64,000 nt of DNA from Faecalibacterium sp. UBA1771 (GCA_002315315.1 DCGT01000022.1:21122-85121), one strand, 5' to 3'. Numbered from the stretch's first letter, positions 1 to 15,595 are shown. The notes: generated from the sequence alone by a model not told the origin. Translations and numbers: made by a program.

Positions 1-720
1 ACTGCTGTTGCGTATAACGGCACCGAATGAATTTTCAATAGAGTTCTTGCGGCGATAGTTGGAGAAAAATCTGAATTCTATCGGGTCAATTTCGAGTACC
101 GCACCGTAATATCCCCTGCCGTATACAATGAAACCGTCTTTTATATCGGTAAAACCGATAATATCGTCCATACTGCTGCTCTTGCGCGAGCCCTCTATAG
201 CAAGCTTTCTCCTACGCTTGAGCTCGGCGTTGCGATGAGCCTGATCCTTCAGAATTTCCCTTTTCTGCTCCTCGGTAATATCATCGCTATTCAGCAGCTT
301 TTCATCGTTTTTGTCTTCTTTTTCAATTAGCTTTTTAAGCTTCTTGTAATCTTTTTTTGCTTTTTTTTGTTTTACATGGTCGGCTTCTCCGAAAAGCTGT
401 TCGATAGCCACTGCATCATATCCGCGTGATTTAATTGCGCGCAGAGTTTTATCGTCGACATCTCTGATAAAATGACGACGATAAGACAGATGAAGAATGA
501 TGTGAATGACATCCATATAAATCGGTTCATCATCAACTCTTGCAAGCAAAGTCAACGTAACTATGATATCAAGCGCCAAAACAACATATTTGGCGGGCAA
601 TGTCGACATAACTATAAGCGCAGCAAGACCTATACCGATAGTTCCTATAATCATATCGGCAAAAGTGATACCACGGAAAAGCTCTATTCCGACCTTTGTT
701 TTCCCGGGAATAATACGCAC
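1..720 (-). CDS. T4SS ATPase, 5' part only: PrgI/VirB3-like membrane module fused to a VirB4-like ATPase (gene runs off the window start)
   Basis: Absent from the ORF track because there is no stop in the window. The reverse frame is open from GTG at 720 (AGGAGG about 10 nt upstream) to nt 1, which is 240 codons. It encodes two TM helices (ITFADMIIGTIGIGLAALIV, VVLALDIIVTLTLLARV) with PrgI/VirB3 topology, then a ~70-aa Lys/Glu-rich linker. It ends with DDIIGFTDIKDGFIVYGRGYYGAVLEIDPIEFRFFS, which resembles the N-terminal entry segment of Firmicutes VirB4/TraE-type ATPases. The Walker motifs would lie outside the window. Confidence 0.65.
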   Translation of the reverse strand, partial: MRIIPGKTKVGIELFRGITFADMIIGTIGIGLAALIVMSTLPAKYVVLALDIIVTLTLLARVDDEPIYMDVIHIILHLSYRRHFIRDVDDKTLRAIKSRGYDAVAIEQLFGEADHVKQKKAKKDYKKLKKLIEKEDKNDEKLLNSDDITEEQKREILKDQAHRNAELKRRRKLAIEGSRKSSSMDDIIGFTDIKDGFIVYGRGYYGAVLEIDPIEFRFFSNYRRKNSIENSFGAVIRNSS

Positions 721-821
721 GCCGATTGTTCCTCCTATAAACAGATATGGGTTATTCCCCGCCGTTTTTCAGGCAGGGAATAACTTTGTTAATTTAAGCG
801 AATGTATGATGAGTCAGCCTA

Positions 822-2628: not shown

Positions 2629-3573
2629 TCAGTTTGATCTGAATTTTTTGCGTTTGAATATCGAATAGAAAAGAATTATCGCAAATATTGCCGTAACAGC
2701 CAAAATGAGAATCCATGTAATATTGCTCAGGTACTGCCTTATTGTAAAATCGTAATTCGTGTAGTTGCCCGCTCTGTCGGTTACTTTGAGCTTGTAATGA
2801 CCCGCCCTTGCGAGCACATCGCTGTAGACGGATTCGTAACCGTCTATCGTCATATAAACTTCCTCACCCTCGCCCAAACCGGTTACCGTTACCGGACCCT
2901 GCGCGTATCGGTTGTTGATAAGTCCCTCAAACTCGAGTGCGGGAGCGGTACGGTCGCTGTAAAAGTTAATGCTGAAGCTCTGACCCGTACTCGGACATGA
3001 ATAAACTATGTTGTATCTGCCGTCCTCCGTAATATAGACTCCCGACGATGTGTAATCAATATAGCTTCCGTCTAACGTTGCATAGGTTATTTCAAAATCA
3101 TCGGGAGGCACAAAGCTCGAGAACAGCGAGGTGTAATCATCGAGAATTCGAAAGGTAAAGAAAGGTGAATTGACATCACTGCCGTCGTCTACCATCAGTG
3201 TATATCCGCCCGGCTCGGTAATACAGCTGAAATCAGGCTCCTCAACCAGTTCACCGTCGCAGTAGAGCTGAGGCATAACCTCATTGGGTACATCAAGTAT
3301 CACCGTCTGCTGCACCGTTGCGCCGTCCGGCACCGTCGAGTAGACGTAAGAGCCGAGCTTATTGTTCACCTTGTAGCGGTACAAGCCTGTATCATGGTCG
3401 TATGTAGTGTCACCGGAGAGCGCGTAGACTCCCTCGGTAACACCTCCGATTTCCTCGCCGGTAAAGTTGTCGATTCTCACACCCTCTATGAGTGCGAATG
3501 ACTGAACCGACAGCGACATAAGCAGCACCGTGGCAGATGCGGCAGATATTATTTTTCTCAATGTGTTAGTCAT
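2629..3573 (-). CDS. Exported, C-terminally membrane-anchored surface protein with three small Ig-like modules (314 aa), function unknown
   Basis: Signal peptide (AASATVLLMSLSVQSFA). Three loosely repeated modules share a G-x-Y-x-hydrophobic...F-x-F/I strand pattern (GGYTLMVDD..FTFRI; DGRYNIVYS..FSINF; AGHYKLKVTDRAGNYTNYDFTI). A single C-terminal TM helix (ITWILILAVTAIFAIILFYSIF) is followed by a KRKKFRSN tail. No LPXTG. Confidence 0.6.
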   Translation of the reverse strand: MTNTLRKIISAASATVLLMSLSVQSFALIEGVRIDNFTGEEIGGVTEGVYALSGDTTYDHDTGLYRYKVNNKLGSYVYSTVPDGATVQQTVILDVPNEVMPQLYCDGELVEEPDFSCITEPGGYTLMVDDGSDVNSPFFTFRILDDYTSLFSSFVPPDDFEITYATLDGSYIDYTSSGVYITEDGRYNIVYSCPSTGQSFSINFYSDRTAPALEFEGLINNRYAQGPVTVTGLGEGEEVYMTIDGYESVYSDVLARAGHYKLKVTDRAGNYTNYDFTIRQYLSNITWILILAVTAIFAIILFYSIFKRKKFRSN

Positions 3574-3594: not shown

Positions 3595-6021
3595 TCAGCA
3601 TCCGTCGTCGGACTTCGGCTTCGGGTCGTTATACTGAACAACTGTTCGATAGGTATTTTTCCATGTGTTATAATCCATCGTATTCAGCTTACCCGCGGCA
3701 TTTGCGTCCTGCGCAGTCTGGTATCCTATTAATACATAAGGGTTGTTACTGAATATGTCGAAACCTCTTACGGTATTGTTGTAATAGTTCTCGTCAAGCG
3801 TTTGATCGAAATCCTTGAAGGTCTTGCTGTCCATAATATTCTTTGTGACATAGTTATACGAGTCAGAGGTACCGTCGTTATACAGTGCAAGGTCGGAGTA
3901 AAACAGCGGGCGGTTGTTGCCGAGGAACATACTCTGAAGTGTCACCGAATCCTCTTTGTATTGGTCAAATACCATACCGCTGAAATTATAGTACATTCCG
4001 TTATTTCTGAATATAGAACCCACCAATACCGGCAATAAATAGCACGTATAGAAATCAGTTGGCGAAGCGGCTACCGGATAATCTGTACTATTATATATAT
4101 AGTTACCGTTATAGCAGATCATACCGTTGTCTACAATTGCCTTGCGCTCTTTTGCCGAGGGCAGCCCGCGCACAAATTTATATGCGGTAGTGATTGTATT
4201 GGCTGCATTCCTCAATCCTCCTCCGGTCATTACAACACCCGAGGAGCAGTTGTCAAAAATCGAGAGATACATATAGAAACCGTGATGGCATATAAATATT
4301 CCGTTGTTCTGAATATTTGTACCATACGTGAAGCATACGTTGTCGGAACGCTGATTCCTGCGGGTGTAAAATGTACCGTTTTTAGCAATAATAAGGCTTG
4401 CACCGGAGAAATAATAATTTCCGTAGCCGGAATCCTTCCTTCCGCCTAAATCAGCGTCGCATACAATTCCGCCATCCTCTATTATCAGCGTTCCGTAGCA
4501 AGTGAGATTCCCGGCAACCGCGATTTTTCCCTTGACGCGTACGGTACCGCCCTGATCTATAAGCAGAGTTTGACCATTGCTGATATTAAGAGTTTCACCC
4601 TGTACAACAAGTGTGCTGCCGTCTCCGACATATATAATGGAAGACTCTGTTTTCTCAAAGCCAATCATATAATACAAACCGACATTTAGCTTTAATCTTG
4701 TTTCATTCAATCTCGAGAACAGTACATGGGAGCTGTTTACAAGTCCGGACCAACCCTCTTCGGCAGAACCAATCCATGCAATAGCTCCGGCGCCATCAAT
4801 ATACGTACCGACTTTGCAGGTGGTCGGTGCGGTTTTTATTTTTGCAATACAGGCGTCGGCATACGCGGTTATCGAGCTGTCGATATTTTCTTTGTTCGCT
4901 TGATACCACTTCATAATCTGAGTATTGTTAAAGGTATTCTCGTTGTAGTCATAAACCGTATCGTTGGAAAAATAGTATAAATAATTGCTGTCTGCTGCCA
5001 GTGACCATTTGATGTTGCTGTTATCACTTACGGGGACCTCAAAGCACTCATCATTTGTTTCTACACCGTGCCATTTCGTTACGGTTACCGACTTGTCGCC
5101 GACCTTCCACTGACCGGTATAGTTTCCGACGGAATCCGTGTCCTCGGTGGGCCAGGCGTAGCGCTTCTGAAACATCTCAGGGTATTTCTTGTATTCGCTT
5201 GCGGTTACAAAGACCTGATTGTCGTATTCTGCACCGTTACCTACAATGTAATTTATATTGCACATAAGATGAAGCTGACCGTCATTGCCTCTGAATGCCA
5301 CATAGTAGAGCGGATTTTTACTGCTGTCAACACCGGCATATTTTAAGAAGATACAGTCTATGTTATCGTTTGTATAACCAGTCCCACCAAAGGCAAATAA
5401 ACTTGTAGGGGCACCTTCATAAAATGTTCCGGTATATGCTCTGGTTAATGTCGTTAAGACCTGTGGCTTGACATAATCCGAACCGAGAATCCCCGAGAGA
5501 TTTTTATTCCCGTCGTGGTCTATCATGGCATTCTTAAGCAGATAGTGCGGGTGAGCAAAACACTGCAGATATTCTGAATAACCGTTATCACTCACCTTGC
5601 CGCCTACTATACAAGCAAATCCATCTACATCCAAAATTGTGCTTGTTGCACCGGTTTGAAGATGCTCGGTATCATTAGGCATACAGTTACTCATATTACT
5701 ACCACTTGTCAAAATCAACCTAACCCAGCCCGTGTCGGTGTCATATCTCAAATCCGATGTTACTTTGTCGCAATCATCAAAAACATTGTAGGTTGCGGAG
5801 CCGATTCTGTTAAGCCGATCAGAGCCTGTTCTGTCGGTCCATTTAATTCTTTTATTACTGAGAGTATTCCCCTCTATCAAGTCGGTTTGAACCGTAGACA
5901 CCGCAGCGGAAACCTCTGCCACAGGAGCTATGGCAAGGATTGAAAATATAGACGCAATCGACAATGTGACGCCGATTATGCGCCGAATATGTATTTTGAA
6001 TTTGCGGAATATTTTTTTCAT
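3595..6021 (-). CDS. Secreted 808-aa Cys/Asn/Tyr-rich protein with a beta-solenoid-like central segment, function unknown
   Basis: The track ORF begins at TTG 6024. The ATG at 6021 has AAAGGAG 7 nt upstream. N-terminal signal/anchor (IIGVTLSIASIFSILAIAPVAEVSA). The segment IIYVGDGSTLVVQGETLNISNGQTLLIDQGGTVRVKGKIAVAGNLTCYGTLIIEDGGIV shows the short Gly/Asn strand periodicity of a beta-helix. There are 17 Cys and the protein ends in ...KSDDGC. No family recognised. Confidence 0.6.
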   Translation of the reverse strand: MKKIFRKFKIHIRRIIGVTLSIASIFSILAIAPVAEVSAAVSTVQTDLIEGNTLSNKRIKWTDRTGSDRLNRIGSATYNVFDDCDKVTSDLRYDTDTGWVRLILTSGSNMSNCMPNDTEHLQTGATSTILDVDGFACIVGGKVSDNGYSEYLQCFAHPHYLLKNAMIDHDGNKNLSGILGSDYVKPQVLTTLTRAYTGTFYEGAPTSLFAFGGTGYTNDNIDCIFLKYAGVDSSKNPLYYVAFRGNDGQLHLMCNINYIVGNGAEYDNQVFVTASEYKKYPEMFQKRYAWPTEDTDSVGNYTGQWKVGDKSVTVTKWHGVETNDECFEVPVSDNSNIKWSLAADSNYLYYFSNDTVYDYNENTFNNTQIMKWYQANKENIDSSITAYADACIAKIKTAPTTCKVGTYIDGAGAIAWIGSAEEGWSGLVNSSHVLFSRLNETRLKLNVGLYYMIGFEKTESSIIYVGDGSTLVVQGETLNISNGQTLLIDQGGTVRVKGKIAVAGNLTCYGTLIIEDGGIVCDADLGGRKDSGYGNYYFSGASLIIAKNGTFYTRRNQRSDNVCFTYGTNIQNNGIFICHHGFYMYLSIFDNCSSGVVMTGGGLRNAANTITTAYKFVRGLPSAKERKAIVDNGMICYNGNYIYNSTDYPVAASPTDFYTCYLLPVLVGSIFRNNGMYYNFSGMVFDQYKEDSVTLQSMFLGNNRPLFYSDLALYNDGTSDSYNYVTKNIMDSKTFKDFDQTLDENYYNNTVRGFDIFSNNPYVLIGYQTAQDANAAGKLNTMDYNTWKNTYRTVVQYNDPKPKSDDGC

Positions 6022-6204
6022 CAAAAAACTCCTTTGCTCTTTGGATTTTTTTCAAATCCGCTCAACCCCCGCGGCTGAAACGGCTTTCAGACTTCTCCGC
6101 TGATATTCTTCTTATGGTCTTATTATATATTATTACAAATCATAAGATGTGAAGAAACTGTTACGGAGCAGTAAAATATCTATTACAAAAAGGTTGTAGG
6201 AGAA

Positions 6205-7347
6205 TTATTCGCCGCTGTCCTGCGACTCATCCGCGTGTTCTTCTCCACCGCTAATGGGGACCGGCACCGGCTCGACATAATCGGGTGAATAGACTATGCG
6301 GTAAACTCCTTCCTCCTCATCGTAAACAATTTCATTTCCGGCATATACGGGGACATCGCCTTTGTATTTGCCGACTGTGCAGGATTTGACCGTGACAACA
6401 CCGTCGCTGTCTCTGTAAACCGAGAAGCGATAGGTCAAATTCGCCTTGTAGCTCGAAACGGTTAAAACGCCACTCTGCGTAGTATGGTACTCCTCTACTA
6501 ATGCGTCACGTTCGTCGAGCTGTTCCTCTGCTGCTGTTTCTTCTTCGGATTCCTCGCCCTCCGTCTCGGACTGCTCCGAATCCTCCGTTTCCCATTCCGA
6601 GGGGTCATAAAGTGTGGGGACGTCTTGAAGAACAGCCTCTCGCTGCTTCGCAGTTTCAGCCAGATATTCCTCATCACTCCATACATCGAGCACTGCTTCG
6701 ATATCGTCAGAGTACAATGCATCTATCTTTGATTGAACGTCCTCGGCAAAAACCGTAAACACGCCTGTTTCGTCACTATATTCAATTCCCGATGTCAGGA
6801 ATATATTATTGTCGCACTCGACAACCCAGTCGTTTGCGGTACCCTCGTTTGTTACATAAATCAGAACATCCCTACCGCTGCTAATCCAGCTGATAGGATA
6901 ATCTGTATCCCTGCCCAAAGTATTATATTCATCTCCGGTTTTACCGGTAAATGATTTGAACAGTAAATTTGCAAGTCTGTCGACTTCAAAATCACACAAA
7001 ATGGTATATTCCGTATGATTTACGCCCTTTTCGCTCACCAGAGCAAAGCTGACGGTATCTTCTCCGTTCATTTCCGCTGTGATTTTAAAGCTCGGTTTAC
7101 AGTCTTTATCAATGACAGGACCCTCTATAGCGCATATTCCGCTGCGCGAGGAAGCCTGCCAGCTGTAACCGTCCGGTATATCGTCTGTCAAAGTAATCAG
7201 ATAGCTACCGTTGTGTTTGTATTTCCATTCTATCGGATAGGTCAGCATCTGCGAAGTACCGGTGGTATTCGACTTGTCGCAGCCTGTCAAAACCGTCATG
7301 GAAAAAATAAGTATAAAAATTGTAATTATGCCGAAAAACCTTTTCAT
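6205..7347 (-). CDS. Lipoprotein of the T4SS operon (380 aa), function unknown
   Basis: GGAGG RBS and a lipobox LTG/C (FSMTVLTGCDKS). Two related modules (YPIEWKY...DGYSWQASS; YPISWIS...NDWVVECD) are followed by a polyacidic linker (EWETEDSEQSETEGEESEEETAAEEQLDERD) and a C-terminal beta-rich module. Confidence 0.65.
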   Translation of the reverse strand: MKRFFGIITIFILIFSMTVLTGCDKSNTTGTSQMLTYPIEWKYKHNGSYLITLTDDIPDGYSWQASSRSGICAIEGPVIDKDCKPSFKITAEMNGEDTVSFALVSEKGVNHTEYTILCDFEVDRLANLLFKSFTGKTGDEYNTLGRDTDYPISWISSGRDVLIYVTNEGTANDWVVECDNNIFLTSGIEYSDETGVFTVFAEDVQSKIDALYSDDIEAVLDVWSDEEYLAETAKQREAVLQDVPTLYDPSEWETEDSEQSETEGEESEEETAAEEQLDERDALVEEYHTTQSGVLTVSSYKANLTYRFSVYRDSDGVVTVKSCTVGKYKGDVPVYAGNEIVYDEEEGVYRIVYSPDYVEPVPVPISGGEEHADESQDSGE

Positions 7348-7408: not shown

Positions 7409-7440
7409 TCCCGACCGGCTCTTAACCGAGCCGGTCGGGA
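7409..7440 (-). promoter_or_regulatory. Intra-operon 13-bp stem-loop between the giant gene and the lipoprotein gene
   Basis: tcccgaccggctc-ttaacc-gagccggtcggga is a perfect 13-bp stem lying 10 nt after the giant ORF stop. There is no clear U-tract on the transcribed (minus) strand. Confidence 0.45.
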
Positions 7441-7449
7441 TAATTTGAT

Positions 7450-10400
7450 TTACGAGCCCGAAGAGGGTGAAGTAACCTCGATTTCGAGCTTGACCGCGAG
7501 TGAACGGAGCGCATTCTTATCAGCTTCCGTTATCGCTGTCTTGGCGCGCGGGTAAATTGTAATAATGTATCTGCCGGTCGATGTGAGCGTGATAACCTTG
7601 GTGTTCGTATCAGCTCCGGACGCATTCTCAAGAACTTCTTCAAAGCTTGTGTTGCCGCTATCGGTAATTGTCTTCTTGGTATAGACCCACTCAATTCCGT
7701 TAATCGAAATATCGTTCATCTTGACAACTACGTTGACTTCGTTTTCAAAGTCCGTGATAGCCCAACCGTAGTTTCCGTTGTTATTAAGCTTCTCAGAGTT
7801 CGGGAATATCTCGCTGTGAGTACCGTACTCAAGTGTACCGCCGATTGCGAAGCCCGCAGATCCGCCGCCGAAGTTGACCATTAGCGGATTGCCCGTGGTG
7901 GTCAAGCCTGTATCACCGACGTATGTCTTTGCGTCGGGGCTTACCGTTGTCGCATCTACACCGACAGTGGTGGTGTACTTGCAAGAAGCAAGCTTCCAAG
8001 AGCCGAGTGCATCGCCCGACTTCTGAGGCTCGAACATTATCTGGTTGATTGCCTTGACCGACGTGAGCAACAGTGTAAGCTTTGCGGTAGCTCCGTTATC
8101 GAGCGAGCCTTCGTTGAGGAAGTTCGCTATATTGGACACATAGTAAGTTCTTAACTCATCGTTGTTGTCGGTGTAGCAGACTACCATATCAACTGCGGAG
8201 GTTGCCTTGCCATCGGGAGCCGTAACGATCTCCAAATCAAGACCGCTCAGACGGCTGATATCCGCCAAGCCCTCTTCCGCAGAGCCGTTCTTGGAGGTGA
8301 TGTACTGCATCTTAGTTGACAGAGTGACCGAATTGATACTCGAGCCGTTAAACCAGCCCTTTGTTTCGTTTTTGGTCTCGGCATCCTTCTTAATCTGCTC
8401 AACGGCGGATTTCTCAATGGAAACCTTCATAGCCTTGTTGGTAACCAATCCGCCGATGCTGTCGATGTAGTCGACCTTATCTGCTTCGAACGGAATCTTT
8501 ACGGTCATTCCGGCGTAAATCTCATTTATTCCGAGACTGCTGAGATAGACCGTACCTGCAGAGTAGAAGAATGTACTGGTATCGTCGACCATGTGATAGC
8601 GGAATGTAATTCCGACATCGTTGGTAGCATCAATGGCAACCTTATTCCAAGTCGTGCTTGTGGAAACGACGTTTCCGTCATCATCCTTATTTTCGGTTAC
8701 GACCTTACCGGTTTCTTCACCGAAGTAGATGTAGGCGTACTGATGGTAGTAATCCTCGTATTCAACGTCTACCGTATCGTATTTGATTGAGGTTTCTTCT
8801 CCGGCTTTAATTAATGATCCTTCGTCCTCAATGTCAAAGCTGGTAAAGGTACCGTTCTGAATTACCTCACCGTCGCGTACCTGGTTGAGCTGAATGTTGA
8901 GAATCTTGAGATCGACGCTCGAATTAATGTTGACCTCTGTCGGCAGACAGAACTTAGGTGTACTGAACCGAGTCGTGAATACACGGTTTGCAGACGAATA
9001 GTAGAGTCTGACCTTACCTGTCGTGGTGTCGTTGGGGTCATTCTGCAAAGTCTTGTAGCTCGGTCCGGGAACCTGGTTATTGTTGGCGTAAATATCATAG
9101 TATCTGACATTTACGTCAATGTACGAGCCGACGTTGAGAGTATCGGTGTTTCCGGGAACGATGGTCAGAACAAGCTCGTCATGCTCACTGACGTGAACAG
9201 GCTGTTCAATGACTATCTTACCGTCGTTGGCAATAGCATTAATCTTGTTGCCATCGGCGAAGCGAAGAACAACGGACGAATCGGAGGTGCTGCCTACCGA
9301 CACGCTCTTGGGCATCGTCTCGGATGTACTCTGTGTACACAGCTCAAGAACATTTCCGTTTCCGTAGTCGCGTTCGTACTCACCGAAGGTGTCGCCGGCA
9401 GAGCTGTTCTTTTTAAGTCTAAGCGTACCGTCAGTCGCAACCTGTCTTACCGACAGATTCTGTATATTCCAAACTCCTGCATCGGTTTCTGACTCTGCCT
9501 TGCATCTGAATGTAATATCAATCAGCGAGGAAATGTTATTGAACGAAATCTTAAAGCGGTTTACATGGTTCGCTACAAACATATAGCTGGGATCACTGAC
9601 CACCATGCCCTCTGAGTTTCCGCTCGAACGATTTGCGTAAGCCTCGATTTCCACAACGAGGTCGTTAATGTTTTTCTGTCTGATAAGACCCGAAGAATCG
9701 CGGTATCTGATGACGGCGGAATAGGTACCCTTAGGTGCCGCCTTGCTACCTGTCATTAGAGCAAATTCAAGGTCAATGGTATATGTGCTGTCGGTCACGG
9801 GGAATGTTCGTACAATCTGCGACTCCGGTCTGCCGACATAGTCGTCCTCGGCGTCATTGTATTCAATGTCAATCCAACCGACATCACCGATGATATACGA
9901 ATAACTCAATCCGCCCTGCGATGACTTCTTAACGATAATCTCTTTGATTTTCAGTTTATCGAACGATGTTTCCTGGTTGGAAATATCATCGGGCAGAATG
10001 TTTATTGCCGTCAGCTCGCCGTAGTCACCGTTCATATAGATGTAGAAGCTTTCCTCCTGTCCGCTTCGGAATCCGTCGGACAACATCTGCTGATTGGCGT
10101 TTACATAAGAGCTGGTGTACTTCTTGCCGTCCTTATCAAAGACAAGCTGGAAGTAGAATTGGTTGGTGGAACCGGTATCACCCATGGTCAGCGAGCTGTA
10201 AGCCTCTGAATCAACCTGAACCATAACATTATAGGTTACTCTGACCTTTGTAAGACCGTAGTTTACCTTAGCCTCGTCATAAGTCAGCTTGCGAACCTCA
10301 ATAATCTTGTTTTCGTCAACCTTGATTGTAGGCTCGGTTTCGGTGCCTTCACTGGTGTTGAACGAGAGCGAAACAGTATTGCCGGGCTGTACAAGGTAGC

Positions 10401-12921
10401 CCTTGGTATCGTCACCGAATGTAAACTTGGAGCTCTCATCAAACTCCATATTTACACGCTCGATGTATCTGTCAAGATAGCTGGCATTGGTACCTTCTCC
10501 CACTTTGATCCAGTCATTGCTGTTGCAGGAATAGTAGGTTTTCAGATCACCCATATCGGTAATCCTTTTAATCTCAACCTTTGTGAACTGATACTCGTCG
10601 TTGTTAAGAGCATCCTCCATGTGTATTTCCATACCGGTGAATTTTTTAACATCGGCAGCTGAGATTATAAAACTGATTGTCAGACCGCTTCTTGCGTACC
10701 AACGAAGTCCGCCGTAATACAGAGGACTGAGAGCAAGCTCGGACTCGGTCAAATACACACTGGCGGCAAGCTGAGACCCTGCGGGAACATCCTCTTCACC
10801 GAGTTTCGACACTGTGATCTTATACGGATCAATTCCAAATAACTTGTAAAACGGGTCGAGGGTCTTAAGAGCGGTAAAATAAGCTGCAGTTTCGGGAGAT
10901 ACCTGCAATCCATTTATATATGTTGACGTAACTACTTCAGGATCGTTATAGTCAAAGGTCTGACGAATCTTGGAAACATAGTCGCTATCGTCAAAAAGAA
11001 GATTCTCATCACGACCTGTATAGAATATCTCTTCATAAAGCTCTTTATATTTAAACGCAACATTACTTGCAAATTTGGTCTTATACCACTCGGCACGGTG
11101 AGCGTCGATCGAAGGCCAATAACCGTAGTTTTCGATAAGAGCCTCAATAAGATCTATTTTACCGGTTTCTACAATATATCCGTTGTTGTTTTCATAAGAA
11201 ATGTTAACATCCATTCTATTGACAGTACCTGCCTGGTCAATGGAATCGGTAGTAATTGAGACCAAATAGCTGTTTTCATCGCAGTCGGGGAGCAAATCCG
11301 CACTGCCGTTAGCGGGGTATTGTCTTATCTGGTCACTTCCCACCAAGTCAATTTGGTTATCAACCGAAAGAACCGTACCGTCGAAGGACTCCGATTTGTA
11401 GTAATAAAGCGGCGTGGTCGATGCATTTACTACTATTTCACGATTATAACCATCTACACTTACCGTCACACTACTCGGATCGTCTATTTTGCTTATGCTT
11501 ATTCCGGCGATTGAAATTGAGTCGCTGGTTCCCTCCGAGACATTGACTCTGTCAGTTACCGTTCCCAAACCGTTGAAGGTCGTCTGGCTGCTTTTTACAC
11601 GCTTGGTCTTAGCACTCACTCCGAAGCCGTTCTCCACTGTATTCATAATGACCGTGTTGCCATACATAACGAGAATCTCGGCAACCGAAACGAAATTCGG
11701 AAGGTTTACCGGGAATTTCAAGCTGTCTCCGCGCTGAGCAACCCAGGCAACAGAGTCCAAAATACTCTTGCCTGACGCTGCATCATCATATTTTTCCATC
11801 GCCCACGAGATATAACTCGTCGTGACGGGAATTAATACTCGCCGGTAAATTCCTTCGGTGTCTAAATATACCAGTACTGCGGCAAGCGACTCGGTATAAT
11901 CATTGCCGGTCAGTGAAGCACTGAGGAATGGATAAGAACCGAACAATGTGGTCATTGTCTCGATACCGCCGCCCAAAACATCGGCAATATCAAGCTCGAA
12001 CATATAGTTCTCTTCGGAGTTATTTGAAGAATAATTTACCGCATTGTTATAATCCGTTTCATTCTTATAACGCTTATAGGTAATATATCCGTCTGTATGG
12101 TCGGAACCCCATCTGGCATTGTAGTTTGAACTATTGGGGTAAACTATGAGCATCTGTCTGTCTGAGGTACCACCCTGCGGTATTTTTTGATTTGTATTAC
12201 CGAACGGGTTACCGAAGGTAATTACCGTTCCGGCGCCTTCAAGACTGAGAGTGATAAAACCCGTCACCGGAGCCGACTCGGCAATCTTGGTACCTTCAAA
12301 ATCAAGATAGGTGCTCGGAGATATGTAGCCGTACATTCCGCTTCCGTTAATTTTGGAAACCTTGTAGAGTCTGAACGACTTCAAATCCCAGTTACCGGTA
12401 CTAGTGGCACCGTGCATCTGTATAGACTGTATCTGACCGATTTCATAGAACAGGTTCAAAACATAGGTATCGGTACTCATTGAAGTCAAGGCATCCGAAG
12501 AAAGCTTCCACGAAGAAACGTCGAATCCGAGCTTTTTTGCATTTTGAACCTTCACATTATTTGTACTTACAACTGTGTATCTTGTCGAAAGGTTTAACTG
12601 TTCCTGCGGGAACACTGCCTGTGTTCTCGGTCTGCCGTCCACATCGTAATAGTCTATTGTAATAAAGGAAACGATGTTTGAGCCGTTGTTGCTGCCGGTA
12701 GTAACCTCGAGAACGTATGTTTGATTAAACGCACTCTCCTGTTTGGTGGTATTAAGGATATTCGTAAATCCGTTTCTGATGTTACCGACAGCGTTTTTCA
12801 CCGCAGGCACAACCTCTGCCGCCGCCGTGAAAACGCCGCACTGCGAAATAATCAGCAACGCAAACATCAGCGACAGAAGCTTTTTTGCTATTCTGTTCTT
12901 TTTTTCAGAGCGATGGAACAT
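7450..12921 (-). CDS. Giant secreted protein (1823 aa) built from divergent PLAT/LH2-like beta-sandwich modules; no cell-wall or membrane anchor
   Basis: One uninterrupted 5.5-kb ORF with an AAGGAG RBS and a signal peptide (LLSLMFALLIISQCGVFTAAAEV). At least six ~90-120-aa modules begin Y/L-x-L/V-x-I/V-x-T..G and end W/hydrophobic-x-L/I-x-x-hydrophobic-x-hydrophobic. Examples are YVLEVTTGSNNGSNIVSFITIDYYDVDG...GNWDLKSFRLYKV, YTIDLEFALMTG...GVWNIQNLSVRQV and LDLEIVTAPDGKATSAVDMVVCYTD...GSWKLASCKYTT. The C-terminus (...EIEVTSPSSGS) has no LPXTG and no TM helix. Confidence 0.7.
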   Translation of the reverse strand: MFHRSEKKNRIAKKLLSLMFALLIISQCGVFTAAAEVVPAVKNAVGNIRNGFTNILNTTKQESAFNQTYVLEVTTGSNNGSNIVSFITIDYYDVDGRPRTQAVFPQEQLNLSTRYTVVSTNNVKVQNAKKLGFDVSSWKLSSDALTSMSTDTYVLNLFYEIGQIQSIQMHGATSTGNWDLKSFRLYKVSKINGSGMYGYISPSTYLDFEGTKIAESAPVTGFITLSLEGAGTVITFGNPFGNTNQKIPQGGTSDRQMLIVYPNSSNYNARWGSDHTDGYITYKRYKNETDYNNAVNYSSNNSEENYMFELDIADVLGGGIETMTTLFGSYPFLSASLTGNDYTESLAAVLVYLDTEGIYRRVLIPVTTSYISWAMEKYDDAASGKSILDSVAWVAQRGDSLKFPVNLPNFVSVAEILVMYGNTVIMNTVENGFGVSAKTKRVKSSQTTFNGLGTVTDRVNVSEGTSDSISIAGISISKIDDPSSVTVSVDGYNREIVVNASTTPLYYYKSESFDGTVLSVDNQIDLVGSDQIRQYPANGSADLLPDCDENSYLVSITTDSIDQAGTVNRMDVNISYENNNGYIVETGKIDLIEALIENYGYWPSIDAHRAEWYKTKFASNVAFKYKELYEEIFYTGRDENLLFDDSDYVSKIRQTFDYNDPEVVTSTYINGLQVSPETAAYFTALKTLDPFYKLFGIDPYKITVSKLGEEDVPAGSQLAASVYLTESELALSPLYYGGLRWYARSGLTISFIISAADVKKFTGMEIHMEDALNNDEYQFTKVEIKRITDMGDLKTYYSCNSNDWIKVGEGTNASYLDRYIERVNMEFDESSKFTFGDDTKGYLVQPGNTVSLSFNTSEGTETEPTIKVDENKIIEVRKLTYDEAKVNYGLTKVRVTYNVMVQVDSEAYSSLTMGDTGSTNQFYFQLVFDKDGKKYTSSYVNANQQMLSDGFRSGQEESFYIYMNGDYGELTAINILPDDISNQETSFDKLKIKEIIVKKSSQGGLSYSYIIGDVGWIDIEYNDAEDDYVGRPESQIVRTFPVTDSTYTIDLEFALMTGSKAAPKGTYSAVIRYRDSSGLIRQKNINDLVVEIEAYANRSSGNSEGMVVSDPSYMFVANHVNRFKISFNNISSLIDITFRCKAESETDAGVWNIQNLSVRQVATDGTLRLKKNSSAGDTFGEYERDYGNGNVLELCTQSTSETMPKSVSVGSTSDSSVVLRFADGNKINAIANDGKIVIEQPVHVSEHDELVLTIVPGNTDTLNVGSYIDVNVRYYDIYANNNQVPGPSYKTLQNDPNDTTTGKVRLYYSSANRVFTTRFSTPKFCLPTEVNINSSVDLKILNIQLNQVRDGEVIQNGTFTSFDIEDEGSLIKAGEETSIKYDTVDVEYEDYYHQYAYIYFGEETGKVVTENKDDDGNVVSTSTTWNKVAIDATNDVGITFRYHMVDDTSTFFYSAGTVYLSSLGINEIYAGMTVKIPFEADKVDYIDSIGGLVTNKAMKVSIEKSAVEQIKKDAETKNETKGWFNGSSINSVTLSTKMQYITSKNGSAEEGLADISRLSGLDLEIVTAPDGKATSAVDMVVCYTDNNDELRTYYVSNIANFLNEGSLDNGATAKLTLLLTSVKAINQIMFEPQKSGDALGSWKLASCKYTTTVGVDATTVSPDAKTYVGDTGLTTTGNPLMVNFGGGSAGFAIGGTLEYGTHSEIFPNSEKLNNNGNYGWAITDFENEVNVVVKMNDISINGIEWVYTKKTITDSGNTSFEEVLENASGADTNTKVITLTSTGRYIITIYPRAKTAITEADKNALRSLAVKLEIEVTSPSSGS

Positions 12922-12981: not shown

Positions 12982-14988
12982 TTATGCTATGTCCTCGTCG
13001 TTATCCTCCGAATCGCCGAGCACGATGGCATTTCTTGCCTCGATATCGTAATACGATTCCTCGGCGTTGAACACGTTGCTTGAAATATCATCCATGTTCA
13101 TCTTACCGAATTGGTAGAAAGGACATTTGTAGGAAGGCGTATATTTTGTCTTTAGCGGGAAGTTACCGAATGTAACGATAATTGCGTTTCCGGTAGATTC
13201 CTTGTTGTTCAGCTTCTGCAGCTCACTCGGATAGATAAGCGGGCGCGTCTGGACCTGTGACGACATACTCAAATCGCCTTCCTTACTGCCGACCTGAGTA
13301 GATGTGGATGTTGTGCGGACCGATTTATTGCCGCACAGCTCACTGAATTCCTTGCAGGTACCTATATCGTTAGAGCCGATGAACATTTTCATACCGCAGT
13401 TGGACTTTACGATATCTGCAACGGTTTCACCGTAAACGTTGTTGAGCTGCGAATAGCTCTGTACAACCATATTGAACCAAATTTTTCTGGAACGTCCGAC
13501 TGTAATCATCTGACCGAACTTTTCAATTCGCGGCATATTGCCGAACTCGTCCATAATAAAGTAGACGTTTCTGGGCAGCGACAAATCCTCACGAGCGGAC
13601 GCAACCTTGATAAGAGCCTTGTATATGCTCAGTATAAACAGAGCTGCAAGTCCGTGACGGGTATCCTTTTCATCCGGAATCTTGAGGAACATCGCCGTAG
13701 GACGCTCTGCAAACTGCGAAGCGTGAATATCGGTCGCACTGGTCAGACCGCAAAGACCGCGGTCGTTGAACAGCGAGAGCTTGTCGAAGGTAATCGACAT
13801 ATAAGACGACATTGTCTGCTCGGCGGCGGCGAGAACCTGTCTCGACATAGAGACCGCCTGCGACAGCTTGTCACGTCCCTTAAAGAAGTCTTTAAGCACG
13901 GCGTAGTCATTGTCACTGTTGGTGAGTATTTTATTTAAACTGAAGAAATTGAACTTTTCCTTCGTCATATTAAGCTCGGGATTGGCACTATCCTCAAGCA
14001 TGGCGAGGCACGTTGCCATGACGATGGAGCGGGCACCCTTTTCCCACAGCGGGTCTTTATCGTTAGTAATAGGACAAATTCCCGCGATAAGGTCGTTCAA
14101 GTCTTCGTACATTTCATCGTAAATCTTTTGCTTTGCAACACTTATGTCGCTTTTACATTTCGGCAGGTCGGCATAAGCCTTGCCGCCCCATTCAACCCAC
14201 GGATCGCCGAATCCTGCAGGCTCACCCATTACCTTTAATTCGGGGTAATCGGACATATTGTCTCGGTGAATTTTCATTCCCTTATCGGCGGCGAGATATT
14301 CCTGATAGGCATCCCAAATACCGTCGAGGGGATTCCAGCGCGACGACTGGTAGGTATCTCTCAAGTCGAGAACGAGTACATCGTATCCGCGCGACTTTAA
14401 GAAAGCGGAGTGAAGGTCGAAAAGCTCGCCCTTCGGGTCGGTGCATATCATAGAGCTTCCGCAGTTGGTAGCACCGAGTAGCTGAATCATCGGATTAATA
14501 AAAGTGGTCGTTTTACCGGAGCCGGTAGCACCGATTATGAGTGAATGCGCTCCCGAAAGGAAGTTTACATCGAGCTTGCCCTTTTTGTCCAAGACGGCAC
14601 GGACCGGAACTCCGTCATTCTTACATTCGGTCAAGGTCTCATAATATGCGTGCGGGAAATATTTTTCTCTTTCCTTATCGGTAAGGAATCGACTGTTCTC
14701 AAGCACACTGTCAACGTCGTCGTCTTTTCCGCCCTTGAGAAGCTCAAAGCCGTTTGTTTTGAACAGACCGTTGCCAAGTCCGAAGACAAGCGCGAATACC
14801 ACGAAAAAGATGCCGCCGATAATCAACGTCATGGGATCGATAACCGAGTGCCAGTCAAATTTTACCTTTTCGTTCAGAATAAACGCGTCGGCATTGTCTA
14901 TGAGAAATGTCAGCAACGTTCCCACAATCCATGATGCAACGAGTGCAAACGTAACGAATATCAATACTTTTTTTGTTTTTTTGTTCAT
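12982..14988 (-). CDS. virD4: Type IV coupling protein (VirD4/TraG family ATPase), 668 aa
   Basis: Two N-terminal TM helices, Walker A GATGSGKTT, TDPKGEL, and a Walker B region VYFIMDEFGNMPRI. A T4CP-type C-terminal block is present: GRSRKIWFNMVVQSYSQLNNVYGETVADIVKSNCGMKMFIGSND. Confidence 0.85.
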   Translation of the reverse strand: MNKKTKKVLIFVTFALVASWIVGTLLTFLIDNADAFILNEKVKFDWHSVIDPMTLIIGGIFFVVFALVFGLGNGLFKTNGFELLKGGKDDDVDSVLENSRFLTDKEREKYFPHAYYETLTECKNDGVPVRAVLDKKGKLDVNFLSGAHSLIIGATGSGKTTTFINPMIQLLGATNCGSSMICTDPKGELFDLHSAFLKSRGYDVLVLDLRDTYQSSRWNPLDGIWDAYQEYLAADKGMKIHRDNMSDYPELKVMGEPAGFGDPWVEWGGKAYADLPKCKSDISVAKQKIYDEMYEDLNDLIAGICPITNDKDPLWEKGARSIVMATCLAMLEDSANPELNMTKEKFNFFSLNKILTNSDNDYAVLKDFFKGRDKLSQAVSMSRQVLAAAEQTMSSYMSITFDKLSLFNDRGLCGLTSATDIHASQFAERPTAMFLKIPDEKDTRHGLAALFILSIYKALIKVASAREDLSLPRNVYFIMDEFGNMPRIEKFGQMITVGRSRKIWFNMVVQSYSQLNNVYGETVADIVKSNCGMKMFIGSNDIGTCKEFSELCGNKSVRTTSTSTQVGSKEGDLSMSSQVQTRPLIYPSELQKLNNKESTGNAIIVTFGNFPLKTKYTPSYKCPFYQFGKMNMDDISSNVFNAEESYYDIEARNAIVLGDSEDNDEDIA

Positions 14989-15135: not shown

Positions 15136-15489
15136 TCAGGTTGTGGCGTTGGTTACCACGTACTTGTTTACCCACTCATTGAGGATAGGCATAAGCATCT
15201 TAAGGGCGAGCATAAGAACGAAGATAAGTACAAATCCGATGATGGCACTCTTGAGGTGCTGCTTTGCTTTTTCGCGTTCCTGCGGTTCCTCTGCTTTTGC
15301 ATACTTTACGCCGAGAATGATGCAGAACAGCGAGCCGAGTGCGCCGACAATGGCAAGCGCCGGAGTGACAAGGCTGTTGATAAGATCAACAATAGGCTTA
15401 TACATTTTCTCGAAATTGACTGAACCGCTGTCGGCTGTAAGGATCCTCGATGCGGAAGCAACCATAGTGCTGATGGTCGTGAATTTCAT
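15136..15489 (-). CDS. VirB2/TrbC-like pilin-type small membrane protein (118 aa), first gene of the T4SS operon
   Basis: The ATG at 15489 has AGGAGG 6 nt upstream, and the longer track ORF to 15567 lacks an RBS. Topology is an N-terminal leader, TM1 (LVTPALAIVGALGSLFCIILGV), a short charged loop (KYAKAEEPQEREKAKQHLKS) and TM2 (AIIGFVLIFVLMLALKMLMPIL). That is the VirB2/TrbC hairpin layout. Confidence 0.6.
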   Translation of the reverse strand: MKFTTISTMVASASRILTADSGSVNFEKMYKPIVDLINSLVTPALAIVGALGSLFCIILGVKYAKAEEPQEREKAKQHLKSAIIGFVLIFVLMLALKMLMPILNEWVNKYVVTNATT

Positions 15490-15595
15490 ATTTTCCTCCT
15501 GAATTACTTTTGCTTTTTTATTAGTACCGATTCCCGCAGCGTCCGTGTACCGCGTCAATCGGGACAATACATTTTGGCAATTGAATCTTATGTGT

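What the first reader, a model, noticed from the sequence alone, without database searches (positions are those of the whole stretch)
7450..12921. 1823-aa secreted protein made of divergent PLAT/LH2-like modules, embedded in a T4SS operon
The protein has a signal peptide but no LPXTG, no C-terminal TM helix and no lipobox.

Reading the sequence, I see at least six (probably about eight) modules of ~90-120 aa. Each opens with Y/L-x-L/V-x-V/I-x-T-x(2-6)-G-[ST] and an 'x-V-x-I-x-Y' strand. Each closes with W-x-L/I-x-x-hydrophobic-x-hydrophobic-x-x-V. Examples:
- YVLEVTTGSNNGSNIVSFITIDYYDVDG ... GNWDLKSFRLYKV
- YLVSITTDSIDQAGTVNRMDVNISYENNNG ... DEYQFTKVEIKRI
- YNVMVQVDS...FYFQLVFDKDG ... SFDKLKIKEIIVKK
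- YTIDLEFALMTG...AVIRYRDSSG ... GVWNIQNLSVRQV
- LVLTIVPGNTD...DVNVRYYD ... DLKILNIQLNQV
- LDLEIVTAPDGKATSAVDMVVCYTDNND ... GSWKLASCKYTT

This skeleton is that of PLAT/LH2 beta-sandwiches, the lipid- and membrane-associating domains of lipoxygenase, alpha-toxin, polycystin-1 and LOXHD1. The modules share no nucleotide-level repetition, so they are old and divergent.

A tandem PLAT array in a bacterial T4SS locus would be unusual. It suggests a function in membrane or target-cell contact.
Basis: inference. Interest (0 to 1): 0.75.

Follow-up and report, generated by a model that had tools for sequence, protein, structure and literature searches.

The report
Secreted PLAT-repeat protein of clostridial T4SS
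This gene encodes a giant secreted protein built from about eight very old copies of a lipid-binding PLAT-type domain. It belongs to an unnamed protein family that sits inside a type IV secretion gene cluster in many rumen and gut Clostridia, where it probably acts as the cluster's contact arm.

Summary

**The gene.** ORF 7450-12921(-) encodes 1823 aa. It has a good ribosome-binding site and an N-terminal signal sequence. It has no LPXTG, no C-terminal TM helix and no DNA-level repeats.

**The family.** An exhaustive HMMER search found 328 clusters at 50% identity, all unnamed. None of 146 long members has a sorting signal.

**The repeats.** Profile-profile comparison shows real internal repeats:
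- M1, M1b, M2, M4 and M6 match each other at 86-97% probability.
- M5 is moderate; M5b is weak.

**The PLAT link.**
- The best-conserved module, M3 (aa 878-1025), hits Pfam PLAT in 30 of 44 orthologues (best E 2.3e-7). The query itself scores 18.6 bits, below the cut-off of 23.
- Confident Foldseek matches of both AlphaFold models are almost all PLAT-bearing proteins: lipoxygenases, lipases and alpha-toxin.
- A merged M1/M2/M4/M6 profile aligns full-length to lipoxygenase PLAT domains (78%; reversed control 0.3%).

**The context.** Synteny is strong. VirB4 and a STAS gene lie just upstream in 50 of 53 informative genomes, and RsbW-like kinase and SpoIIE-like phosphatase genes often follow. The T4SS is of the Mycoplasma-ICE type, chromosomal, with no relaxase seen.

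**Function.** Its function (target-cell or membrane contact) remains an inference.

The parts
7450..12921 (-). Whole gene: 1823-aa secreted multi-module protein (called BIG here)
   Evidence: ORF. Shine-Dalgarno AAGGAG lies 8 nt upstream. The family has 328 clusters at 50% identity.
12817..12921 (-). aa 1-35: Sec-type signal sequence (basic n-region, hydrophobic core, AAA|E)
   Evidence: Read from the translation. 136 of 146 family members have an N-terminal hydrophobic segment. Cleavage is not tested.
12274..12726 (-). aa 66-216: module M1, a PLAT-like beta-sandwich with a helical insert after strand 3
   Evidence: hhalign M1~M4 96.5% and M1~M2 92%. AF2 pLDDT is mostly about 85-94 and the module is all-beta.
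   Evidence: hhalign M1b~M6 91%, M1b~M4 60%, and merged profile~M1b 76%. AF2 pLDDT is about 85-96.
11278..11526 (-). aa 466-548: small beta domain X, not related to the repeats
   Evidence: AF2 pLDDT 87-96 with strands only. No hhalign link to any module.
10522..11277 (-). aa 549-800: module M2, split by a 141-aa low-confidence helical insertion (aa 605-745) specific to this protein
   Evidence: hhalign M2~M4 96.9% and M2~lipoxygenase PLAT 40% over 86 columns. The insertion is 141 aa against a family median of 14. pLDDT is below 50 in the insertion.
9847..10290 (-). aa 878-1025: module M3, the PLAT/LH2 domain proper and the most conserved part of the family (ANQQ...DGFR, FDKL and GW motifs)
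   Evidence: Pfam PF01477: query 18.6 bits; 30 of 44 orthologues hit, best E 2.3e-7. Mean pairwise identity is 0.52 against 0.25-0.32 elsewhere. pLDDT is about 85-94 in both models.
9367..9804 (-). aa 1040-1185: module M4, PLAT-like
   Evidence: hhalign M4~M1, M4~M2 and M4~M6 at 96-97%, and M4~M3 at 46-52%. PLAT is the only recurrent Pfam family, in 3 of 45 members. pLDDT 84-95.
8836..9186 (-). aa 1246-1362: module M5, probably PLAT-like
   Evidence: hhalign M4~M5 72% over 94 columns, but no link to the merged profile. AF2 is all-beta with pLDDT 52-82.
8326..8754 (-). aa 1390-1532: module M5b, possibly PLAT-like
   Evidence: hhalign M5b~M6 43% and merged profile~M5b 34%. AF2 is all-beta with pLDDT 52-88.
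7936..8259 (-). aa 1555-1662: module M6, PLAT-like
   Evidence: hhalign M6~M4 96.4%, M6~M2 86%, and M6~M3 42-62% over 53-83 columns. pLDDT 84-93.
7453..7935 (-). aa 1663-1823: variable C-terminal beta region of unknown fold
   Evidence: pLDDT 29-64. Mean pairwise identity 0.21. In relatives this end carries extra repeats (P0003).
12982..14988 (-). VirD4-like coupling protein immediately upstream
   Evidence: Pfam T4SS-DNA_transf E 1e-50. NCBIfam conju_CD1115 scores 291.6 bits against a cut-off of 250.
15136..15567 (-). VirB2-like T4SS pilin gene at the head of the cluster
   Evidence: Pfam T4SS_pilin 53.5 bits. NCBIfam Mbov_0395 family 58.4 bits against a cut-off of 40.
822..2609 (-). VirB6-like polytopic membrane protein
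   Evidence: NCBIfam MMCAP2_0566 and Mbov_0396 families. Homologous to the 849-aa gene of locus L001 (E 6e-91).
2629..3573 (-). 314-aa conserved T4SS-cluster protein with a signal sequence and a C-terminal TM helix
   Evidence: Homologous to the 323-aa gene next to VirD4 in L001 (E 6e-48). The two queries together hit roughly 35 of 83 loci.
1..768 (-). N-terminal part of a VirB4-like ATPase gene, cut by the window edge
   Evidence: phmmer with the L001 VirB4 gives E 2.3e-55. The L001 VirB4 matches NCBIfam Mbov_0397 VirB4_plasma at 544 bits.
16480..16779 (+). STAS (anti-sigma-antagonist-like) gene, the window's copy of the gene that sits directly upstream of BIG in other genomes
   Evidence: Pfam STAS E 5e-10. 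phmmer with the L001 STAS gives E 5.7e-27. STAS lies upstream of BIG in 50 of 53 loci.
6205..7347 (-). 380-aa lipoprotein gene (LTGC lipobox), downstream neighbour
   Evidence: Read from the translation. Homologues in only 3 of 83 loci.
3595..6024 (-). 809-aa secreted protein, specific to this locus
   Evidence: Translation. No Pfam or NCBIfam hit. No homologue in the 83 loci.

Best explanation
**What is shown.**
- The gene encodes a Sec-exported extracellular protein that is not covalently anchored.
- It is a string of about eight anciently duplicated PLAT/LH2-type beta-sandwich modules: M1, M1b, M2, M3, M4, M5, M5b and M6.
- Small unrelated beta domains (X, Y, Z) separate the modules, and a variable tail ends the protein.
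- It belongs to a large unnamed family that is a fixed accessory gene of a chromosomal, Mycoplasma-ICE-type T4SS in rumen and gut Clostridia.
- That T4SS has a VirB2-like pilin, VirD4, a VirB6-like protein and a long VirB4.

**What is inferred.**
- The protein is secreted through Sec and associates non-covalently with the T4SS or the cell surface.
- It probably does so through the strongly conserved M3 module (52% mean pairwise identity against 25-32% for the rest).
- It extends as an elongated arm.
- Its more variable PLAT-like modules bind the envelope of the partner cell (membrane lipid or another surface component).
- In this reading it supplies the contact or adhesin function that LPXTG adhesins such as PrgB supply in other Gram-positive T4SSs.
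- The adjacent STAS, RsbW-like kinase and SpoIIE-like phosphatase genes suggest that the machine is switched by phosphorylation-dependent partner switching.
For: **Architecture.**
- Internal repeats at 86-97% hhalign probability.
- Both AF2 models are all-beta, with mean pLDDT 70.6 and 73.2.

**PLAT identity.**
- Pfam hits in the query and in 30 of 44 orthologues.
- Foldseek probability-1.00 matches almost only to PLAT-bearing lipoxygenases, lipases and alpha-toxin.
- Merged repeat profile against lipoxygenase PLAT: 78%, with a reversed control at 0.3%.

**Export without an anchor.**
- Signal sequence present.
- 0 of 146 family members have an LPXTG-like motif plus TM tail.

**Link to the T4SS.**
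- In 53 genomes with enough upstream sequence, 50 have VirB4 and 50 have STAS on the same strand just upstream. The median STAS-to-BIG gap is 62 nt.
- The neighbouring genes are identified.

**Conserved core against variable periphery.** Per-module identities are.

**Background.**
- Gram-positive T4SSs typically rely on surface adhesins for mating-pair formation (PMC12857230, section 14).
- From established knowledge: PLAT domains mediate membrane or protein association in lipoxygenases, lipases and alpha-toxin.
Against: - No experiment bears on localisation or binding.
- The query's own M3 is below Pfam's gathering score (18.6 against 23 bits).
- M1 and M6 give essentially no direct Pfam PLAT signal.
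- Foldseek E-values are modest (3e-3 to 5e-2) and carry no query coordinates.
- There is no recognisable cell-wall-binding or anchoring domain, so retention at the surface is assumed, not shown.
- In this window the gene order differs from the family norm. BIG follows VirD4 rather than VirB4-STAS, and STAS is 3.5 kb away on the other strand.
- No relaxase was seen, so the T4SS may not be conjugative, and 'mating-pair' contact may be the wrong frame.
Confidence: 0.55

Rival explanations
1. Structural fibre or tip subunit. The protein is part of the extracellular conduit itself: a stalk through the thick wall, or the tip adhesin of a pilus built from the cluster's VirB2-like pilin (a functional analogue of VirB5). 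It would not be a free-standing adhesin.
For: A VirB2-like pilin gene heads the cluster. There is no anchor motif in the whole family. M3 is strongly conserved, as expected for a docking module. The gene sits tightly next to VirB4 in 50 of 53 genomes.
Against: There is no similarity to VirB5 or any pilus subunit in Pfam, NCBIfam or Foldseek. Nothing indicates polymerisation. Gene order relative to the pilin gene is variable.
Confidence: 0.2
2. Secreted membrane-targeting toxin or effector. The PLAT modules act like the C-terminal domain of clostridial alpha-toxin and deliver an unrecognised activity to target membranes. The T4SS linkage would reflect co-regulation only.
For: Alpha-toxin PLAT domains are among the structural matches (1olp_A). 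The protein is Sec-exported and unanchored.
Against: No catalytic or pore-forming domain is detected in 1823 aa by Pfam, NCBIfam or Foldseek. The non-repeat segments are short beta domains. Conserved operon position next to VirB4 across families argues for a machine part.
Confidence: 0.1
3. General surface or substrate-binding protein of rumen Clostridia (for example attachment to plant fibre or host mucus) that merely rides in the T4SS locus.
For: Carriers are almost all rumen and gut fibre-associated Clostridia. The peripheral modules and the C-terminal end are variable.
Against: No CBM, dockerin, SLH or other carbohydrate- or wall-binding family is detected. Same-strand adjacency to VirB4-STAS in 94% of informative genomes is hard to explain without functional coupling.
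Confidence: 0.1
4. The repeat and PLAT resemblance is a chance pattern in a beta-rich, Ser/Thr/Asn-rich sequence.
For: Individual modules share little identity. Several single-module tests are weak.
Against: Multiple in-register profile matches at E 1e-9 to 1e-10. Reversed-sequence control 0.3%. Independent Pfam and Foldseek agreement.
Confidence: 0.02

Closest known systems
PLAT/LH2 domain (Pfam PF01477) of lipoxygenases, pancreatic and lipoprotein lipases, and clostridial alpha-toxin
   Same: Same beta-sandwich fold by Foldseek (probability 1.00; the cleanest matches have rmsd about 3 A over about 125-150 columns). Same strand-by-strand sequence skeleton: Y-x-V-x-V-x-T-G, F-x-x-G-x-x-D-x-F, and W-x-I-x-x-I-x-V. 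M3 reaches or nears the Pfam threshold across the family.
   Different: Known PLAT domains are mostly single accessory domains fused to an enzyme. Here there is no enzyme and about eight copies. In M3 the strand-6 Trp is replaced by an invariant F-D-K-L motif, and there is a family-specific A-N-Q-Q...D-G-F-R motif. Most modules carry a helical insert after strand 3. Lipid or Ca2+ binding is untested.
LOXHD1 (vertebrate stereocilia protein made of 15 tandem PLAT domains) and the PLAT repeats of other eukaryotic proteins
   Same: An array of tandem PLAT modules with no catalytic domain, thought to link a membrane to other structures (own knowledge; LOXHD1 papers listed).
   Different: LOXHD1 is eukaryotic and cytoplasmic or membrane-associated, and its repeats are easily recognised by Pfam. 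This protein is bacterial, Sec-secreted and T4SS-linked, its repeats are far more diverged, and they are interleaved with other beta domains. Common descent of the array architecture is unlikely.
PrgB-type aggregation substance and other LPXTG adhesins of Gram-positive conjugative T4SSs
   Same: A large extracellular protein encoded inside a Gram-positive T4SS cluster. It is proposed to make contact with the partner cell (PMC12857230, section 14).
   Different: No LPXTG or sortase signal in the query or in 146 relatives. No polymer-adhesin (GbpC/PAD) domain. Different fold. The host T4SS is of the Mycoplasma-ICE type with a VirB2-like pilin, not the pCF10 type.
Mycoplasma ICE-type T4SS module (Mbov_0395 pilin-like, Mbov_0396 membrane protein, Mbov_0397 VirB4) and the related monoderm and Patescibacteria T4SSs
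   Same: The neighbouring genes match these NCBIfam families. As in most Patescibacteria clusters, no relaxase is seen next to the machine genes (PMC12102498).
   Different: The searched literature describes neither a PLAT-repeat giant protein nor a partner-switching module of STAS, RsbW-like kinase and SpoIIE phosphatase as part of those systems. VirB4 here is unusually long (1287 to about 1500 aa).

Membership tests
PLAT/LH2 domain (PF01477) | The query sequence scores at or above Pfam's gathering threshold (23 bits) | tested here: not met
   Query M3 scores 16.8 bits (whole protein) and 18.6 bits (slice), E 0.011 and 0.003. PLAT is the only family reported at E up to 10 for the whole protein.
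PLAT/LH2 domain (PF01477) | Orthologous modules in the family are recognised by the Pfam model | tested here: met
   30 of 44 M3 orthologues hit PLAT at E <= 0.01, best E 2.3e-7. P0003 scores 23.0 bits, equal to the gathering score.
PLAT/LH2 domain (PF01477) | Beta-sandwich fold superposable on solved PLAT domains | tested here: met
   Foldseek of both AF2 models gives probability-1.00 matches almost only to lipoxygenases, lipases and alpha-toxin. The cleanest cover about 125-150 columns at rmsd about 3 A, with E 3e-3 to 5e-2. Which module or modules matched is not reported by the tool.
PLAT/LH2 domain (PF01477) | The other repeat modules (M1, M1b, M2, M4, M6) are homologous to PLAT | tested here: inconclusive
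   Merged M4+M1+M2+M6 profile against three PDB lipoxygenase PLAT domains: 78%, E 1.8e-5, 92 columns; reversed control 0.3%. Merged profile against M3: 76%. Single-module Pfam hits are sparse: M4 3 of 45, M6 1 of 26, M1 0 of 32.
PLAT/LH2 domain (PF01477) | Binds membranes, lipids or a protein partner through loops at one end of the sandwich | not testable with these tools
   Needs liposome or cell binding assays with and without Ca2+.
Sortase-anchored Gram-positive T4SS adhesins (PrgB type) | C-terminal LPXTG sorting signal with a hydrophobic tail | tested here: not met
   Absent in the query and in 146 of 146 long family members.
Sortase-anchored Gram-positive T4SS adhesins (PrgB type) | Polymer-adhesin (GbpC/PAD) or other known adhesin domains (Cna-B, Big, SpaA) | tested here: not met
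   No such Pfam hit at E up to 10 on the whole protein or on 9 slices. No such fold among the confident Foldseek matches.
Sortase-anchored Gram-positive T4SS adhesins (PrgB type) | Encoded within a T4SS gene cluster | tested here: met
   Flanked by VirD4, a pilin gene, a VirB6-like gene and VirB4. Synteny holds in 50 of 53 genomes.
Conjugative (DNA-transfer) T4SS | Relaxase and oriT associated with the VirB4/VirD4 cluster | not tested
   No relaxase family appeared among the neighbours that were scanned. No dedicated MOB search was run, one side of the window cluster is cut off, and whole genomes were not searched.
Mycoplasma-ICE-type T4SS (Mbov_0395/0396/0397) | Pilin-like, polytopic membrane and VirB4 proteins match the NCBIfam models | tested here: met
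   Pilin 58.4 bits (cut-off 40). VirB6-like 115.9 bits (cut-off 90) and 69.4 bits (cut-off 70, just below). L001 VirB4 544 bits (cut-off 590, just below).

The most novel reading that the evidence does not exclude
The PLAT-repeat protein marks an undescribed, chromosomally fixed, non-conjugative T4SS of rumen and gut Clostridia. A Mycoplasma-ICE-type VirB4/VirD4/VirB6/pilin machine would be gated post-translationally by a partner-switching module of STAS, RsbW-like kinase and SpoIIE phosphatase. It would use a Sec-secreted chain of PLAT domains as a lipid-engaging arm to dock onto, or insert into, the membrane of a neighbouring cell. The purpose would be protein or DNA delivery, or killing, rather than plasmid or ICE transfer.
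Probability: 0.2. Interest if true: 0.85.

Novelty: new variant of a known kind. Interest (0 to 1): 0.68.

Why it matters
Gram-positive type IV secretion systems are poorly understood outside a few plasmids. How they reach and engage a partner cell without an outer-membrane complex is an open question. The accepted answer is sortase-anchored adhesins.

This gene points to a different solution:
- It defines a large family (at least 328 clusters at 50% identity, in at least 127 species genomes). Neither Pfam nor NCBIfam has a model for the whole family, and the one member that carries an NCBI name is called a hypothetical protein.
- The family consists of unanchored, secreted proteins made of tandem PLAT domains.
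- It is locked next to VirB4 in abundant rumen and gut Clostridia.
- It is accompanied by partner-switching regulators.

It is also a rare bacterial case of a tandem PLAT array, an architecture otherwise known from eukaryotic proteins such as LOXHD1.

Cultured Hungate-collection carriers exist, so the idea is directly testable.

Tried and rejected
- **Word-indexed homologue searches** returned only the query and two relatives, even when seeded with a 63-sequence alignment. The exhaustive HMMER search showed this was a sensitivity limit, not rarity.
- **A first alignment for the N-terminal AF2 job** (A5) mis-aligned the query's M2 insertion onto M3 of the relatives and was discarded. It was rebuilt with M3 included (A6).
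- **The M3 profile against PDB sequences** gave no hit at E <= 1.
- **Single-module Pfam scans** were weak. M1 gave 0 of 32 PLAT hits, M6 gave 1 of 26 and M4 gave 3 of 45. Single-module hhalign against lipoxygenase PLAT domains gave low probabilities for M1, M4 and M6 (0.9-1.6%), although in register.
- **Segments X, Y, Z and C** showed no relation to the repeats or to PLAT.
- **tblastn against 72,556 plasmids** found no match.
- **Rfam and tRNA scans of the window** found nothing.
- **The lipoprotein downstream** is not related to the conserved '242' gene of other loci.
- **Literature searches** for PLAT with T4SS, and for partner switching with VirB4, found nothing relevant. The 'Hodor' megaplasmid preprint concerns a different system.
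- **SigK and the SrtB-like gene upstream** were considered as part of the system. SigK is the core sporulation sigma factor. The sortase has no visible substrate here, because BIG lacks a sorting signal.
Full report
**1. The observation**

- The minus-strand ORF 7450-12921 is real and encodes 1823 aa.
- A strong Shine-Dalgarno sequence (AAGGAG) lies 8 nt before the ATG.
- The gene is co-directional with its neighbours. It starts 60 nt after VirD4 and ends 102 nt before a lipoprotein gene.
- The N-terminus has a basic n-region, a hydrophobic core and an AAA|E site.
- There is no LPXTG, no C-terminal hydrophobic tail and no canonical lipobox.
- There are no tandem or dispersed DNA repeats in the gene.

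**2. The family**

- The word-indexed protein search found only two relatives, P0002 and P0003. Both are 25-26% identical and colinear with the query.
- An exhaustive HMMER search with a profile of aa 60-1200 found 328 representatives at 50% identity (267 at E <= 1e-30). The listed members are mostly 1200-3300 aa.
- Pfam and NCBIfam have no model for the family. The one member with an NCBI name is called 'hypothetical protein'.
- A pattern scan of one genome per species found 127 carriers. Nearly all are rumen or gut Lachnospiraceae, Ruminococcus, Eubacterium, Oscillospiraceae and Acutalibacteraceae.
- The carriers include cultured Hungate strains: NE2001, NC2004, AC2029, LC2019, FC2018 and E. 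ruminantium FB3002.
- None of 146 long members has a sorting signal. 136 have an N-terminal hydrophobic segment.
- There is no homologue on any of 72,556 plasmids.

**3. The internal repeats are real**

With only three sequences the signal was marginal. With sub-alignments cut from a 63-sequence alignment (A3), hhalign gave in-register matches:

| Pair | Probability |
|---|---|
| M1~M4 | 96.5% |
| M2~M4 | 96.9% |
| M4~M6 | 96.4% |
| M1~M2 | 92% |
| M1b~M6 | 91% |
| M2~M6 | 86% |
| M4~M5 | 72% |
| M3~M6 | 62% |
| M1b~M4 | 60% |
| M3~M4 | 46-52% |
| M5b~M6 | 43% |

- Five modules are therefore firmly homologous. M3 and M5 are moderately tied in, and M5b weakly.
- This matches 'at least six, probably eight'.
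- Segments X (466-548), Y, Z and the C-terminal 160 aa are unrelated beta regions.

**4. The PLAT identity**

- *Pfam.* PLAT is the only Pfam family that touches the protein, at aa 913-1018 (16.8-18.6 bits, below the 23-bit cut-off).
- *Orthologues.* The orthologous module hits PLAT in P0002 and in P0003, the latter at 23.0 bits. It also hits in 30 of 44 family members, with best E 2.3e-7.
- *AlphaFold2.* With 63-sequence alignments, the models of aa 836-1823 and aa 36-1035 are all-beta, with mean pLDDT 70.6 and 73.2. M1, M1b, M3, M4 and M6 are mostly at pLDDT 84-96. The well-predicted modules show three strands, a helical insert, then four or five more strands.
- *Foldseek against the PDB.* The probability-1.00 matches are almost only PLAT-bearing proteins:
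  - 5-, 15- and 8R-lipoxygenases, and soybean lipoxygenase;
  - lipoprotein and pancreatic lipases;
  - C. absonum alpha-toxin.

  The cleanest cover about 125-150 columns at rmsd about 3 A. Low-probability matches (complement, ferlins) are long spurious alignments.
- *Different modules?* Alignment lengths and identities to the same targets differ between the two models. This hints that different modules matched. The tool gives no query coordinates, so it is not proven.
- *Direct test of the diverged modules.*
  - I took real lipoxygenase PLAT sequences from the PDB search.
  - A merged M4+M1+M2+M6 profile aligns to them at 78% probability (E 1.8e-5), over 92 columns from strand 1 to strand 6.
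  - On the same small profile, M3 gives 38% and M2 gives 40%. The reversed control gives 0.3%.
  - The merged profile matches M3 at 76%.
- No Cna-B, Big, SpaA or other adhesin family appears anywhere.

**5. The context**

Gene order in the window, all on the minus strand:
1. VirB2-like pilin (15136-15567; Mbov_0395 family)
2. VirD4 (CD1115 family)
3. BIG
4. Lipoprotein
5. 809-aa secreted protein
6. 314-aa protein
7. VirB6-like protein (Mbov_0396 family)
8. VirB4, cut by the window edge at 1-768

The rest of the window is core chromosome of a spore-forming Clostridium-class organism: SigK, SpoIVA, SipL, a PASTA kinase, RsmB, PriA, Der and PGI.

Across 83 related loci the usual order is: VirD4, 323-aa gene, VirB6-like gene, VirB4 (about 1300-1500 aa, Mbov_0397 type), STAS, BIG, '242' gene, RsbW-like kinase, SpoIIE-type phosphatase, '535' gene.

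- Of 53 loci with enough upstream DNA, 50 have VirB4 and 50 have STAS on the same strand just upstream. The median STAS-to-BIG gap is 62 nt.
- Of 66 loci with downstream DNA, 48 have the '242' gene, 36 the kinase and 30 the phosphatase.
- The window has its STAS gene at 16480-16779 on the plus strand. Its gene order is a rearranged variant.
- No relaxase or integrase was seen in the parts visible (window upstream side, L001 downstream side, L003). No dedicated search was possible.

**6. How it most likely works**

Shown:
- The protein is Sec-exported and unanchored.
- It is a chain of PLAT-type sandwiches.
- It is a fixed accessory of this T4SS type.
- M3 is far more conserved (0.52 mean pairwise identity) than the other modules (0.25-0.32).

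Inferred:
- M3 docks the protein to a conserved partner, probably a T4SS component.
- The more variable PLAT modules and the variable C-terminal end engage the partner cell's envelope.
- The protein thereby fills the contact role that LPXTG adhesins play in other Gram-positive systems (PMC12857230).

Rivals, ranked in the Rival explanations section: a pilus-tip or stalk subunit, a membrane-targeting toxin, and an unrelated surface protein.

**7. Novelty**

- PLAT domains and T4SS adhesins are both known. The searched literature describes neither a tandem PLAT array as a T4SS accessory nor the association of this T4SS type with a partner-switching module.
- I rate it a new variant of a known kind.
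- The most novel reading still open is an undescribed, non-conjugative, phosphorylation-gated contact machine.

**8. Limits**

- The pLDDT values are moderate.
- There are no per-module structure searches.
- The PLAT assignment of M5 and M5b is weak.
- The function is entirely inferred.
- One flank of the cluster lies outside the window.

Noticed in passing
window 16480-16779 (+); loci L003-L083: In other genomes a partner-switching set accompanies the T4SS cluster. A STAS gene lies directly upstream of BIG in 50 of 53 informative loci. An RsbW-like HATPase_c_2 kinase and a SpoIIE-type phosphatase lie downstream in 36 and 30 of 66 loci. The window keeps only the STAS gene, on the opposite strand. 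This suggests phosphorylation-gated control of a T4SS, which I did not find described.
   Followed up: partly
window 7409-7440: A 13-bp stem (10 G-C pairs) with a 6-nt loop lies 10 nt after the BIG stop codon and before the lipoprotein gene. On the coding (minus) strand it is followed by ATAAACAC, not a U-tract. It looks more like an mRNA-stabilising or processing hairpin, or a partial terminator, than a canonical intrinsic terminator.
   Followed up: partly
window 10687-11109 (aa 605-745 of the protein): A 141-aa insertion, predicted helical and low-confidence (pLDDT < 50), splits module M2. The family median at this position is 14 aa, so it is a lineage-specific addition of unknown role.
   Followed up: partly
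window 1-768 (-); L001 5707-9570: The VirB4 homologues of this T4SS type are unusually long (1287 to about 1500 aa against about 800 aa for typical VirB4). In L001 the NCBIfam VirB4 match begins at about residue 170 and the Pfam P-loop domain at about residue 586. The best NCBIfam match is the Mycoplasma ICE VirB4 (Mbov_0397 family).
   Followed up: partly
window 18599-19822 (-): A class-B-sortase-like protein carries a roughly 200-aa acidic N-terminal extension and a TM segment. It scores below the NCBIfam SrtB cut-off (116 against 154 bits). No protein with a sorting signal was seen nearby, and BIG lacks one.
   Followed up: no
window 3595-6024 (-) and 6205-7347 (-): Two extra exported proteins lie between BIG and the conserved 314-aa gene. 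One is an 809-aa secreted protein with a Gly/Asn-rich repetitive C-terminal half. The other is a 380-aa lipoprotein with an acidic linker. The 809-aa protein has no homologue in 83 related loci, and the lipoprotein has one in only 3.
   Followed up: partly
loci L022, L023, L037, L043, L060, L079: Several carrier contigs are labelled Bacteroidaceae or Paludibacteraceae in their MAG records, although the gene content is of the same clostridial T4SS type. This is probably mis-binning, but horizontal transfer was not excluded.
   Followed up: no
P0003 (L003 3916-10653), aa ~1700-2245: Some family members extend the C-terminus with several extra tandem modules of about 110 aa (for example repeated '...ITLKT...V...NG...G..VSD...' units in P0003). 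The distal end of the protein is therefore modular and variable between species.
   Followed up: no
method note: The word-indexed homologue search returned 3 proteins even with a 63-sequence query alignment, while the exhaustive HMMER search found 328 family representatives. Apparent rarity in the first tool was an artefact of its candidate cap.
   Followed up: yes
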